Below are positions 48,501-51,500 of a DNA stretch of 64,000 nt, in pieces; position 1 is the stretch's first letter, and each line of letters begins with the position of its first letter. The position numbers were made by a program. The stretch covers positions 1 to 64,000 of IMG/VR virus record IMGVR_UViG_2684622670_000009. One strand, given 5' to 3'. Source of the DNA: a virus. Its lineage: Duplodnaviria > Heunggongvirae > Uroviricota > Caudoviricetes.

Positions 48501-51500
48501 CCATTTAAATATGGGACGGTCAAATTCTGCCGTTAGCTTAACTCTCCGTTCTGTTGCTTCATGATTTTTTGCCTGCTGATATGCAGCCTTAATAATCCGC
48601 TCACCAATCCATCGCATTACTGGTATCGCCATGCTATTGCCGATCGCTTTGTAACGCGGTCCGTCAGCTGCAAGCATCGCGGCCTCTTCTTCGCTTAAAT
48701 CTGGATAGTGATTGCGAAGGTATGCCAGTTCATCTGAAGTAACTTTTTTACGCTTTTCCGTCGGGATCAACGTATGCCCATCAGGAAAACCTTGCAGTCT
48801 TTCACATTCGACAGGGGTAAGACGGCGGACAGCTACTGCTGCGTTTCCTACGTCATAGCAAACGGCTGTTGTATTTTTGGCCATTAAAGATGGTGAAGTA
48901 TTCTTAGTTGCAGCATGTTGTGTACCGCTCATACGCTCAGGAAAAGCCAATGTAACAAGATGCTCATGGCTTTCTTGCTCACGTGCCCGCAATGTACCAT
49001 GCCCTTCTGACCAAAAACCTGCTCCTGTGCTGCTAAAAACTGCAAGGTCAGTGGCATCTTTAAAGTCTCTCGCCTTTACTGTCGATGCGGTTTCATCGCC
49101 AATATATTCCCCAAATGCCGCCATCCTGAAAGCGTTTACGGCTTTCGTCGATTTCATACCGGGGGTAATGTCAGCGTGTAGGCATGGATTTAGGCTTTCG
49201 CCACTGATTGCAGCGCCATTTGCAATAATGGCGGAAGCGATTTCCTTCTTTTTTCGGCTCGGCGCAATATTCCGGCGCACGCCTTCGAACTCAAAAAGTA
49301 CCGTTGCGGGATCGAGGTCTGTTCGAGCACTTGCGACAACAAACACGCGTCGGCGTCGTTGTGCCACTCCGAAGTATTGGGCATCAAGGATTCTCCAGGC
49401 CACCTTTCGCTGCGGTCCATAAATACAACCACACTGCGGCCACTTTGGAGCATGGCAACCGGTTTTGCCATCCCACCGCCAGAACGCGTTACTTTTTCCT
49501 GATTCAGGTCGATCACCTGGTTCAAATGGCGCATCTTCTCCAGCCAATCCGGCAAGGAAACATCCGAAGGCGTTATCTGCCGATGACAAGACTCCTGGGA
49601 CATTTTCCCAGACGATAACGGCTGGTTTGAGAAATGACTCAGCCCGTTTGTCGTCAATTGCATTTGCAAGCTCCACATACTTTAAAGTTAGCGCGCCACG
49701 CTCATCATCAAGCCCACCACGTAATCCCGCGATACTGAATGCCTGACAGTTATGGACCACCGCACCATTGAGGATATAGGAATGATCACCTTCGACTTCT
49801 ATGTTGTATACAGTATCTAGGCCTACCGATTTAAACTCTTTGACTGTTCGTAAAAGCATTCCATGAGCCAATCTTGATTTACGTGACAATTTCTGCGGGC
49901 AGATTGTTACCTGATAATAATTCCGTTGATTTACCACGCGATCCTCGATCACTTTTTTGGGCTCAACTTCAATAAAGCTGACCGAAGAAACATAACCACA
50001 AGTCTGTGACACCCCCGCAACGCCCCAAGCAAGCGCAGGACTAACACTATTAATTCTAAATCCCGCTTTACCACTTGGTGTCCCATCAGTATCAAGATAG
50101 CCTTGTAAAAACACATGACGCAATGGATGCGACATCACCCATGCAGGGATACGCTTAGCATGGCTTAACTCGCCAAAATGTTCATTAAGCCAATTGGCAT
50201 AACACGTATCATTCAAGGTTACTTTGATGCTCCCTCGGATTTCTCTTGCCACGGAAAATATGTTTTCTGGTATGCGACAATGAAACTTTCTCAATTTCTG
50301 GCAATTTATGCCAAAAACAACCGCCTTCTTAGATTTACCTCTCCATCTCCTAATATATCCATCGCCAACATAAGCGCCCGCAAGATACATAGCCTGTTCT
50401 TCAGACAAGAACCGAGAACAAATATCTGGAGATGCAATATTGAAATTAGTTAGAGCGCACCATTGATATCCTGGCATATCACATGCTGCTCGCCATTCCG
50501 GTTCAGACAACAACTCTCTCTTAAAATATGTGCCATTTTTCCGGGTGTTTTGGGCTTTCCACCGAACAGCCAGGAAGGGATGGTCATTGGTTGTTCTTAT
50601 ACCTAAAGGCTGCCCAACGGCATTAAGTAACCCCGTATTAGCTATTTTTGAACCAACTCTTTTTACTTGTTGTAACCGCCCGAGATGACTGACTACGTAA
50701 TCGCCAGGGCAAACATCTTCTATTGGTTTATAACCATTTTTACAAAGAACCATATGCCCCGCGGTAAAACATGGTGTTCCCCCGACGAGCACGTCAGGGG
50801 ATTCGATTTCCCCAGCCAGGACTTTTTTGGCAAGTTTAGTCATGTCGCCAAGGTTGGCGACATGGGGCCAGCGGTGCGCAAGAACGGCCGATGGAAAAGA
50901 CTCGATTTCAGCAAACCACGCCGGACGCATACCCAACGGTTCCCAGGCAATACTCGCGGCTTCAATTCCACTGCAAACAGATCCATAGCACAGCTCTTTC
51001 ACTGCTTAGCCTCTCCACCAAGGGCATTTACCAGAGCATCAACCAGGCACGAAATTTCACTGGTCAACAGGAAGAAATCTGCGTCCAGTCGCTGCGCAAC
51101 ATCTTCACTATCAATATCAGAGTTCTGCTCAAGCAATTCATCCGCAAATTTGACGCTGGTAAGGCTGAAGTTATGGTCCAGTGTAAATTTAATGCGGTTC
51201 TGCCAGTCGAGTGCCAACTTAGTGACGAGCTTGCCAGCTTCCAGGTGTGTGGAAATTTCATCGCTTCCCAAATCCTGCTTTTTCACTCGGGCAATACCGC
51301 CATCCTCAAGCACTGCCTTAAGTTCTGCCGCATCCCCCATTTGAAATCCCTGTGGAGCACTACCATCACGTACCCAGTCGGTCAGCGTTAATTCAATGGG
51401 ATTTTCAACACTTAGGGGAACAACAGGAAGAGAACCCAGAGACTTACGCATAAGTGCGAGCATATCCTCTGCCTGCCGCGCGCAGGCATTGATATAGATA

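What the first reader, a model, noticed from the sequence alone, without database searches (positions are those of the whole stretch)
49749..50771. LAGLIDADG intein inserted at the catalytic cysteine of the Dmt C5-methyltransferase domain
The 1095-aa dmt ORF contains a 341-codon in-frame insertion that splits C5-MTase motif IV: extein ...VLVGGTP | intein CFTAGHMVL ... NGAVVHN | extein CQAFSIAG. The insert starts with Cys, ends with His-Asn followed by Cys, and carries two LAGLIDADG-type blocks (LAGAYVGDGYI, LQGYLDTDGT). Removing it restores GGTPCQAFSIAG and a 754-aa protein. Methylase activity would then depend on protein splicing, and the homing endonuclease marks this as a mobile element inside a phage-plasmid gene. 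I do not know whether this insertion has been reported.
Basis: partly seen in the sequence, partly recalled or inferred. Interest (0 to 1): 0.85.

Follow-up and report, generated by a model that had tools for sequence, protein, structure and literature searches.

The report
Mobile intein inside P1-family dmt methylase
The DNA methylase gene (dmt) of this P1-like phage-plasmid is interrupted, exactly at the enzyme's catalytic cysteine, by a self-splicing protein element (an intein) that carries its own DNA-cutting enzyme. It is a typical example of a known kind of selfish element, it is common in P1-like plasmids of E. coli and its relatives, and I found no paper that describes it.

Summary
On the minus strand, 47715..51002 is a 1095-aa dmt ORF, and 49749..50771 is a 341-codon in-frame insert. 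The insert begins with Cys, ends in His-Asn, and is followed by the Cys of motif IV (GGTP|CQAFS) of the C5-methyltransferase. Intein-less orthologues (P1, P7, SJ46 and others) lack precisely these 1023 nt.

Sequence profiles, a confident AlphaFold model (pLDDT 92.7) and fold matches to PI-SceI and other endonuclease-containing inteins identify it as a class-1 intein. It holds a double-motif LAGLIDADG homing endonuclease, and all catalytic residues are present.

The insert is in about 31% of dmt-carrying complete E. coli genomes, in 133 plasmids (E. coli, E. albertii, E. fergusonii, Salmonella, Shigella), and in one sequenced laboratory P1vir stock.

It sits in several different dmt backgrounds and carries its own flanking bases. 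The converted flank varies in length, and the insert is under purifying selection. This is the pattern homing leaves.

Relatives at about 50% and about 30% identity occupy the same site in other C5-methylases.

Splicing and DNA cleavage are inferred, not shown. Verdict: a real, probably active, ordinary mobile intein. It is a new member of a known kind and of moderate interest.

The parts
47715..51002 (-). dmt precursor ORF, 1095 aa plus stop. Layout: C5-cytosine methyltransferase domain interrupted by the intein, then the Dam-type N6-adenine methyltransferase domain.
   Evidence: ORF list. Pfam PF00145 and PF02086; NCBIfam TIGR00571 at 252.5 bits (cut-off 114.85) and TIGR00675 at 99.4 bits, just under its 100.65 cut-off. 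The exact sequence is WP_059276286.1 of Escherichia albertii.
50772..51002 (-). N-extein, residues 1-77, ending ...VLVGGTP (C5-MTase motif I through the first half of motif IV).
49749..50771 (-). Intein, 341 aa (precursor residues 78-418). Hint splicing domain split by a LAGLIDADG endonuclease domain.
   Evidence: AlphaFold model pLDDT 92.7. Foldseek best match PI-SceI, E 2.5e-16. Precise 1023-nt indel against intein-less alleles.
50769..50771 (-). Cys1 codon of the intein (block A nucleophile; CFTAGH).
   Evidence: Nearly invariant in the alignment of relatives.
50574..50594 (-). Block B, TTNDHPF. Contains the TxxH motif (T61, H64).
   Evidence: T61 and H64 are at least 90% conserved among relatives.
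49887..50435 (-). Homing endonuclease domain (approximately intein residues 113-295).
   Evidence: Secondary-structure elements of the model. Pfam LAGLIDADG_3 match at residues 221-284. Fold matches to I-SceI and PI-SceI.
50352..50387 (-). LAGLIDADG motif 1, YLAGAYVGDGYI. The acidic residue is D137.
   Evidence: G132 is invariant and G138 is at least 90% conserved.
50079..50111 (-). LAGLIDADG motif 2, FLQGYLDTDGT. The acidic residue is D229.
   Evidence: G224 is invariant and G230 is at least 90% conserved.
50139..50159 (-). Conserved AKRIPAW segment with K206, a candidate active-site lysine of the endonuclease.
   Evidence: K206, P209 and W211 are at least 90% conserved. The role is inferred by analogy with other LAGLIDADG enzymes.
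49749..49811 (-). Blocks F and G, VYNIEVEGDHSYIL NGAVVHN. The C-terminal splicing region ends in His340-Asn341.
   Evidence: TIGR01443 above its cut-off. phmmer match to the Spl DnaX mini-intein C-terminus. N341 is invariant.
49746..49748 (-). +1 Cys codon. It is the first C-extein residue and also the catalytic cysteine of C5-MTase motif IV (PCQ).
   Evidence: That the motif IV Cys is the catalytic nucleophile is established knowledge of C5-MTases (for example M.HhaI Cys81).
47715..49748 (-). C-extein: CQAFSIAG..., the rest of the C5-MTase (ENV, QRRRR and GNS motifs), then the Dam domain at 47724..48518.
49734..50786 (-). The two halves of the presumed homing site (50772..50786 and 49734..49748), which are contiguous in intein-less alleles as GTCGGGGG(T/A)AC(G/A)CCT|TGTCAGGCATTCAGT.
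   Evidence: Empty-site sequences of 12 intein-less alleles. The extent of the recognition site is inferred, not measured.

Best explanation
This is a genuine class-1 intein with an embedded double-motif LAGLIDADG (DOD) homing endonuclease. It sits in the dmt gene of a P1-like phage-plasmid, immediately before the catalytic Cys of C5-methyltransferase motif IV. The proposed mechanism has three parts. (1) dmt is translated as a 1095-aa precursor. In P1 the gene belongs to the C1-repressed Pdmt-uhr-hrdC-dmt operon, so the precursor is made mainly when repression is lifted. (2) Splicing is inferred to run the standard course: Cys1 makes the N-S acyl shift, the +1 Cys (the methylase's own catalytic Cys) accepts the N-extein by trans-thioesterification, Asn341 cyclises with help from His340, and an S-N shift leaves GGTPCQAFS. 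The products are a 754-aa Dmt and a free 341-aa intein. Until this happens the C5 domain cannot work. The C-terminal Dam domain probably can. (3) The free intein is inferred to cut intein-less dmt alleles at the motif-IV coding sequence when two P1-like genomes share a cell, for example in mixed infection or superinfection of a lysogen. Repair from the intein-bearing copy then copies the intein together with a variable length of flanking sequence. What is shown: the anatomy, the fold, the conserved catalytic residues, the precise presence/absence polymorphism, the mosaic flanks and purifying selection. What is inferred: actual splicing, actual cleavage, and the timing.
For: Anatomy and profile hits above curated cut-offs. 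AlphaFold2 model with mean pLDDT 92.7 and pTM 0.89. Its best PDB matches are all endonuclease-containing inteins: PI-SceI, TliVMA, PI-PfuI and PI-PkoII, E 2.5e-16 to 7.5e-9. C1, T61/H64, D137, K206, D229, H340 and N341 are present here. Every one I could score from the alignment summary (C1, T61, H64, K206, N341) is at least 90% conserved in relatives down to 23% identity, as are the motif glycines next to D137 and D229. The insert is a clean 1023-nt indel relative to P1, P7, SJ46 and six other alleles. In-silico excision raises the PF00145 score from 105.7 to 126.2 bits and gives one contiguous match across the junction. Distribution is patchy: 152 of 5426 complete E. coli genomes carry the insert, while 337 have an uninterrupted site. 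It is found in 133 plasmids from three genera. It occurs in both the long (754-aa) and the short (672-aa) extein forms, and next to different hrdC and dmt haplotypes. Co-conversion signature: all 38 intein-bearing copies have CCA at the Pro codon next to the insert, whereas all sampled intein-less alleles have CCT. The intein-type downstream flank ends at different points: before +24, between +66 and +106, between +117 and +126, or beyond +129. RCS47 is a P1-like allele with an intein-type tract from about 100 nt upstream to about 120 nt downstream. The intein varies by at most 1.4% at nucleotide level, while nearby extein DNA differs by up to about 8% between groups. Among 38 full-length copies there are no stops or frameshifts. 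pN/pS is 0.29 overall (P=1e-4), 0.12 in the splicing domain and 0.45 in the endonuclease domain (P=0.04). Relatives at 47-52% identity (a Mannheimia prophage and metagenomes) and at 28-31% identity (actinobacterial and alphaproteobacterial) sit at the same motif-IV site, and one is a mini-intein.
Against: No experimental evidence of splicing or cleavage exists in anything I could search. P1-like elements recombine freely, so mosaic flanks could arise from ordinary homologous recombination without endonuclease action. Constraint on the endonuclease domain is weaker (0.45) and only marginally significant. About two thirds of dmt alleles remain uninvaded, including alleles whose site differs from the intein-bearing flanks only at the -1 base. 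That is compatible with limited opportunity for homing, but also with a weak or inactive nuclease. C5 methylation by Dmt itself is only 'perhaps' in the P1 annotation.
Confidence: 0.8

Rival explanations
1. The intein still splices but its endonuclease is no longer active. It persists because imprecise loss would destroy dmt, and it spreads among P1-like plasmids only by vertical descent and ordinary homologous recombination.
For: Constraint is weaker on the endonuclease domain (pN/pS 0.45, P=0.04) than on the splicing domain (0.12). Many susceptible-looking empty sites coexist with the intein. P1-like dmt regions are visibly mosaic even away from the intein.
Against: Both catalytic Asp residues and the conserved Lys are intact. 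None of the 19 variable amino-acid positions touches them. There are no degenerate or shortened endonuclease domains among 38 full-length copies or 126 full-length plasmid copies. The only disruptions are IS insertions. The intein is much more uniform than its flanks, and tract ends are centred on it.
Confidence: 0.25
2. The insert does not splice. It permanently inactivates the C5 domain, or merely self-cleaves, and dmt is kept only for its Dam domain.
For: C5 activity of Dmt is unproven. The P7 record annotates a predicted late promoter inside the gene, and the window matches it in 18 of 19 bases (48727..48745). That promoter could express the Dam part on its own. The related intein in the Mannheimia prophage sits in a decayed methylase gene.
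Against: All canonical splicing residues are present and are the most constrained part of the insert (pN/pS 0.12). The flanking C5 motifs (PCQ, ENV, QRRRR, GNS) are intact, and the extein reading frame is open in every full-length copy. A dead insert would be expected to accumulate frameshifts.
Confidence: 0.06
3. Assembly or annotation artefact, or a chance resemblance.
For: None found.
Against: The same 1023 nt are present at 98.6-99.9% identity in 133 plasmid records, 153 E. coli records, 5 phage records and 26 IMG/VR contigs from independent projects.
Confidence: 0.01

Closest known systems
PI-SceI (Sce VMA1 intein) and the archaeal VMA, PI-PfuI and PI-PkoII inteins
   Same: Same architecture: a Hint splicing domain interrupted by a single-chain, double-motif LAGLIDADG endonuclease. 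Class-1 chemistry (Cys1 ... His-Asn / Cys+1). These are the best structural matches.
   Different: Only 11-16% sequence identity. The insert is smaller (341 aa against 360-540). The host is a bacterial phage-plasmid methylase rather than a V-ATPase, ribonucleotide reductase or polymerase.
Inteins of actinobacteriophage DNA methylases. N6/N4 type: Kelley et al. 2016, PMC5050341, and Gosselin et al. 2023, PMC9957025. C-5 type: listed in bioRxiv 10.1101/2025.01.02.630785.
   Same: Phage-borne orphan methylase as host, a LAGLIDADG intein, patchy distribution, and transfer between divergent methylases. My search also found relatives at 28-31% identity, at least one of them actinobacterial (a Pseudonocardia sequence), at the same motif-IV site.
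   Different: Different host phylum and phage type: an enterobacterial P1-like phage-plasmid. The host protein is a two-domain C5+Dam fusion. Those papers do not mention dmt or P1, and I could not check whether their C-5 insertion site is the same one.
Unnamed inteins at the GGTPC|CQ site of proteobacterial C5-methylases (Mannheimia haemolytica prophage protein P0011; metagenomic proteins P0007, P0009, P0010, P0012, P0014)
   Same: Same insertion point and same blocks, at 47-52% identity over the whole intein. The hosts are Dmt-like C5 domains.
   Different: Too divergent to be the recent donor. The Mannheimia host gene has lost its middle and is frameshifted. Sources name these proteins only 'Hint domain-containing' or 'DOD-type homing endonuclease'.
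Free-standing and intron-borne homing endonucleases of T-even phages
   Same: Spread between co-infecting phage genomes by cleavage and repair, with co-conversion of flanking markers. This is established knowledge and is the model for how this element would move.
   Different: Those are mostly GIY-YIG or HNH enzymes, and they are not protein-splicing elements.

Membership tests
Intein (class 1 protein-splicing element) | In-frame insertion in a conserved site of a host protein, precisely absent from orthologues | tested here: met
   A 1023-nt clean indel against nine intein-less alleles, located inside motif IV.
Intein (class 1 protein-splicing element) | N-terminal Cys/Ser nucleophile (block A) and block B TxxH | tested here: met
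   C1; T61-N-D-H64. Both are at least 90% conserved among relatives.
Intein (class 1 protein-splicing element) | C-terminal blocks F and G ending in (His-)Asn, followed by Cys/Ser/Thr at +1 | tested here: met
   ...VVHN|C. TIGR01443 scores 25.9-28.9 bits against a cut-off of 15.6. N341 is invariant.
Intein (class 1 protein-splicing element) | Hint fold | tested here: met
   Model pLDDT 92.7. Foldseek matches whole inteins and mini-inteins (Prp8, gp41-1). Pfam Hint_2 is at its cut-off.
Intein (class 1 protein-splicing element) | Actual excision with ligation of the exteins | not testable with these tools
   Needs protein expression plus western blot or mass spectrometry.
Class 3 intein | No N-terminal nucleophile; a Trp-Cys-Thr motif with a block F Cys | tested here: not met
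   Cys1 is present, and block F reads VYNIEVEGDHSYIL with no Cys.
Bacterial intein-like (BIL) / Hint-only domain | Lies in variable regions of non-conserved proteins and usually lacks the canonical C-terminal Asn/+1 nucleophile pair and an endonuclease | tested here: not met
   It lies in the most conserved motif of the methylase, has HN|C, and has an endonuclease domain.
LAGLIDADG (DOD) homing endonuclease, single-chain double-motif type | Two LAGLIDADG motifs, each with a conserved acidic residue, in a pseudo-dimeric alpha-beta-beta-alpha-beta-beta-alpha fold | tested here: met
   Motifs at residues 129-140 (D137) and 221-231 (D229). LAGLIDADG_3 scores 33.2 bits against a cut-off of 22.5. 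Fold matches to I-SceI, I-AniI and I-OnuI.
LAGLIDADG (DOD) homing endonuclease, single-chain double-motif type | Site-specific cleavage of the element-free allele | not testable with these tools
   Needs an in-vitro cleavage assay on the empty site.
Mobile (homing) genetic element | Patchy presence among close relatives that is uncoupled from the host-gene background, with co-converted flanks | tested here: met
   31% against 68% of E. coli dmt loci. Present in long and short extein forms. A private -1 base in all 38 copies. Variable tract ends.
Mobile (homing) genetic element | Spread depends on the element's own endonuclease rather than on general recombination | tested here: inconclusive
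   Population patterns fit both explanations. pN/pS of the endonuclease domain is 0.45 (P=0.04).
C5-cytosine DNA methyltransferase (PF00145), as the host protein | Conserved motifs I, IV (PCQ), VI (ENV), VIII (QRR) and X (GNS) in order | tested here: met
   After in-silico splicing PF00145 scores 126.2 bits, with a contiguous match of residues 8-135 to profile positions 5-119. The motifs can be read in the sequence.

The most novel reading that the evidence does not exclude
The intein is more than a passenger. It is made only when C1 repression is lifted, and it cuts the dmt gene of intein-less P1-like rivals. It could therefore act as an inter-phage exclusion or marker-drive weapon among competing phage-plasmids. 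Alternatively, splicing at the methylase's catalytic cysteine could be conditional (for example redox-sensitive through Cys1, Cys+1 or the other intein cysteines), which would gate C5 methylation of progeny DNA during lytic growth.
Probability: 0.15. Interest if true: 0.6.

Novelty: new member of a known kind. Interest (0 to 1): 0.4.

Why it matters
P1 is one of the most used phages in bacterial genetics, and P1-like phage-plasmids are common carriers of resistance genes. A natural and apparently active intein in about a third of their dmt genes gives an easily handled E. coli system for three things: homing between phage genomes, splicing at an enzyme's catalytic cysteine, and the still unproven C5-methylase activity of Dmt. 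At least one sequenced laboratory P1vir stock already carries it. The insert is also a practical annotation point. Current records call the 1095-aa or 1013-aa protein simply a 'Dam family methyltransferase'. The 1-kb insert is a convenient lineage and recombination marker for typing P1-like plasmids. It does not reveal a new mechanism.

Tried and rejected
- **Literature.** Nine full-text searches found no description of this intein (one search traced the origin of OP279344). Search terms combined intein with dmt, P1, P1-like, Punavirus, phage-plasmid, RCS47, cytosine methyltransferase, Dcm and prophage. Papers opened in case they mentioned it did not. The library lacks most subscription-journal papers and the InBase database, so a report there cannot be excluded.
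- **Sequence search against solved structures.** This gave only weak hits: Spl DnaX mini-intein at E 0.0013 and PI-PkoII at E 0.012. The fold search was needed for a clear answer.
- **Looking for a recent donor.** The IMG/VR scan returned only P1-like copies at 99-100% identity. The 5.8-billion-protein search showed a gap between at least 96% and at most 52% identity. No intermediate relative was found.
- **Splitting empty sites into P1-type and intein-type by identity bands.** I tried an 80-nt query. I had typed the -1 base as A instead of T, so the bands shifted by one mismatch. After checking two hits directly the result could still be used qualitatively, but I give no exact type counts.
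- **Class 3 intein, BIL domain and artefact.** All three were considered and rejected; see the membership table.
- **Precise loss of the intein as the origin of 'type ii' empty alleles.** This is unlikely, because none of those alleles carries the intein-linked CCA codon.
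Full report
**1. The observation**

The window holds a 1095-aa ORF on the minus strand at 47715..51002. Read on the minus strand they give a 341-aa peptide, CFTAGHMVL...NGAVVHN, which is residues 78-418 of the ORF. It is preceded by ...VLVGGTP and followed by CQAFSIAG. Deleting it leaves 754 aa with an intact GGTPCQAFSIAG.

The rest of the protein has two parts. One is a C5-cytosine methyltransferase domain (PF00145). 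The other is a C-terminal Dam-type N6-adenine methyltransferase domain (PF02086; TIGR00571 at 252.5 bits). This is the architecture of phage P1 Dmt. The exact sequence is WP_059276286.1 of Escherichia albertii, which its sources name only 'Dam family site-specific DNA-(adenine-N6)-methyltransferase'.

**2. What the insert is**

Curated profiles recognise all three expected parts of the insert, each above its cut-off:
- Hint_2: 28.5-29.3 bits, cut-off 28.4.
- LAGLIDADG_3: 33.2 bits, cut-off 22.5.
- Intein C-terminal splicing region TIGR01443: 25.9-28.9 bits, cut-off 15.6.

The canonical class-1 blocks can all be read:
- Block A: Cys1.
- Block B: T61-N-D-H64.
- Two LAGLIDADG motifs with acidic residues D137 and D229.
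- A conserved Lys206.
- Block F: VYNIEVEGDHSYIL.
- Block G: NGAVVHN, followed by Cys+1.

An AlphaFold2 model built on an alignment of 14 relatives is confident (mean pLDDT 92.7, pTM 0.89). Its best matches among solved structures are all endonuclease-containing inteins: PI-SceI, TliVMA, PI-PfuI and PI-PkoII (E 2.5e-16 to 7.5e-9). Free LAGLIDADG enzymes and mini-inteins follow.

The +1 Cys is the Cys of the PCQ motif. From established knowledge of C5-methyltransferases, that residue is the catalytic nucleophile. Removing the insert in silico raises the PF00145 score from 105.7 to 126.2 bits and produces one contiguous match across the junction.

**3. Presence/absence polymorphism**

The 1023 nt occur at 98.6-99.9% identity in the following:
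- 5 phage records: RCS47, vB_EcoM-Ro157c2YLVW and a 'P1' record.
- 133 plasmids: E. coli, E. albertii, E. fergusonii, Salmonella and Shigella.
- 152 of 5426 complete E. coli genomes.
- 26 IMG/VR contigs.

A 500-nt 'empty site' query found the uninterrupted gene in classic P1 (AF234172), P7, SJ46 and JL22, and in 337 complete E. coli genomes. About 31% of E. coli dmt loci therefore carry the insert.

I aligned the window and 10 other intein-bearing loci with 9 intein-less loci. The insert is one clean 1023-nt gap. It occurs in both the long (754-aa) and the short (672-aa) extein forms, giving 1095-aa and 1013-aa precursors.

**4. Evidence that it moves**

- **Different backgrounds.** Intein-bearing alleles sit next to several different hrdC and N-extein haplotypes, which they share with different intein-less alleles.
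- **Uniform insert, divergent flanks.** The insert differs by at most 1.4% among copies. The adjacent extein DNA differs by up to about 8% between intein-plus and intein-minus groups within 150 nt of the junction. That figure falls to 1-3% further away.
- **A private flanking base.** All 38 full-length copies have CCA at the Pro codon just before the insert. All 12 intein-less alleles I read have CCT, and the commonest E. coli empty site differs from my CCA-containing query by exactly that base. One sub-lineage carries five synonymous differences in the 16 nt upstream of the insert.
- **Variable tract ends.** The intein-type downstream flank ends at different places: before +24 in 2 copies, between +66 and +106 in 1, between +117 and +126 in 1 (RCS47), and beyond +129 in 31. 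RCS47 looks like a P1/L010-type allele with an intein-type tract from about 100 nt upstream to about 120 nt downstream.

These are the expected marks of repair-mediated copying with co-conversion. P1-like genomes recombine freely, so these marks do not prove that the element's own nuclease starts the events.

**5. Selection**

Among 38 full-length copies (21 nucleotide haplotypes) there are no stops or frameshifts, and no variable residue is a catalytic one. pN/pS is 0.29 overall (P=1e-4), 0.12 in the splicing domain (P=1e-4) and 0.45 in the endonuclease domain (P=0.04). Pairwise dN/dS is 0.14-0.24.

Strong constraint on the splicing domain argues that splicing, and hence the host protein, matters. 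The endonuclease is under weaker constraint, and the evidence that it is constrained at all is only marginal. The only damaged copies I saw were hit by IS1 and by a 1329-bp element with IS10-like ends.

**6. Relatives**

The protein search shows a gap between the P1-like copies (at least 96% identity) and the next relatives.
- Relatives at 47-52% identity sit at the same GGTPC|CQ site of Dmt-like C5-methylases in metagenomes and in a Mannheimia haemolytica prophage.
- Relatives at 28-31% identity sit at the equivalent site (SPEC|TNHS, GGSPC|QDVS) of more distant C5-methylases. The two that carry names are from Pseudonocardia and Parvibaculum.
- One relative is a mini-intein without an endonuclease.

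Motif IV of C5-methylases is therefore an intein insertion site with its own intein lineage. No recent donor for the P1 copy was found.

**7. How it most likely works**

In P1, dmt is the last gene of the C1-repressed Pdmt-uhr-hrdC-dmt operon. The precursor, and with it the endonuclease, should therefore appear when repression is lifted.

Splicing by the standard four-step class-1 route would restore the PCQ motif and release the 341-aa intein. Until then the C5 domain is split and cannot be active. The Dam domain lies about 410 residues downstream. The P7 record annotates a predicted internal late promoter, and the window matches it in 18 of 19 bases at 48727..48745.

Homing would need an intein-plus and an intein-minus genome in one cell. 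P1 immunity and incompatibility make that infrequent, which may explain why two thirds of alleles are still empty.

All of this paragraph is inference from sequence and from established intein biology.

**8. Comparison with what is known, and novelty**

Inteins with LAGLIDADG endonucleases at catalytic motifs of nucleic-acid enzymes are well known. Phage methylases are known hosts:
- N6/N4 methylases of mycobacteriophages (PMC5050341; PMC9957025).
- C-5 methylases, listed among actinobacteriophage intein hosts (bioRxiv 10.1101/2025.01.02.630785).

I found no paper that mentions an intein in dmt, P1, P1-like plasmids or RCS47. Sequence records do not name it either. The only traces are automatic labels on fragments, such as 'Hint domain-containing' or 'LAGLIDADG family homing endonuclease'.

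One detail is of practical use. The record 'P1 del res del mod' (OP279344) is the sequenced P1vir stock of one laboratory, and it carries the intein. The P1 reference genome lacks it.

**9. Verdict**

The finding is real and correctly interpreted. It is a new, apparently unreported member of a known kind of element. It is mechanistically ordinary, but it sits in a very well-studied and experimentally convenient phage family. Interest is moderate.

Noticed in passing
window 48100..49300 (-), approximately; alignment columns 2850-3700 of the locus alignment: The middle of dmt, between the C5 motifs and the Dam domain, exists in at least three very different forms. These give exteins of 754, 672 and 807 aa (P1/this window, P7, SJ46) with 12-30% nucleotide divergence and large indels. 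It looks like swapping of the target-recognition region, which would imply different cytosine specificities among P1-like elements.
   Followed up: partly
L003 (P1 reference AF234172), codon just upstream of the empty site: The P1 c1-100 mod749::IS5 reference has TGG (Trp) where every other allele I read has GGG (Gly), at the first Gly of the GGTPCQ motif (VLVWGTPCQ). This substitution in the catalytic motif might impair the C5 domain of the reference strain.
   Followed up: partly
L002 (OP279344.1, 'Escherichia phage P1 del res del mod'): One laboratory's sequenced P1vir stock carries the intein in a short-form (P7-like) dmt, giving a 1013-aa precursor. Its dmt region therefore differs markedly from the P1 reference genome.
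   Followed up: partly
L021-L023 (Mannheimia haemolytica chromosomes), 8001-9837: A 47%-identical intein sits at the same site of a prophage C5-methylase gene. That gene's C-extein has lost its middle motifs and continues in another frame, next to an HNH endonuclease gene and the integrase. The 439-aa product is recorded on hundreds of contigs.
   Followed up: partly
L024 (E. fergusonii pTB91P2) and L025 (E. coli pA409_p0): In one plasmid the intein is cut off 76 nt from its start by an IS1 element. In another it is interrupted after nt 813 by a 1329-bp insertion with IS10-like ends. These were the only damaged copies I saw.
   Followed up: partly
window 48727..48745 (-): An 18-of-19 match to the 'predicted late promoter LPdam2' annotated inside the P7 dam gene, upstream of the Dam domain. 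If functional, it would allow expression of a Dam-only product independent of the intein.
   Followed up: no
window 46283..46369 and 46961..47036 (-): Downstream of dmt the window has tRNA-Asn(gtt) and tRNA-Ser(tga). P1, RCS47 and several plasmids have tRNA-Asn followed by tRNA-Thr, and Ro157c2YLVW has Asn, Tyr and Thr. The tRNA cluster is therefore variable among P1-like elements.
   Followed up: no
L012 (E. coli O111:H2 pDEC12A-1): An intein-less dmt (718 aa) lies in a different neighbourhood, with no uhr upstream and glnS downstream, on a 97-kb plasmid. This suggests a more distant P1-like or D6-like lineage that shares the same empty site.
   Followed up: no
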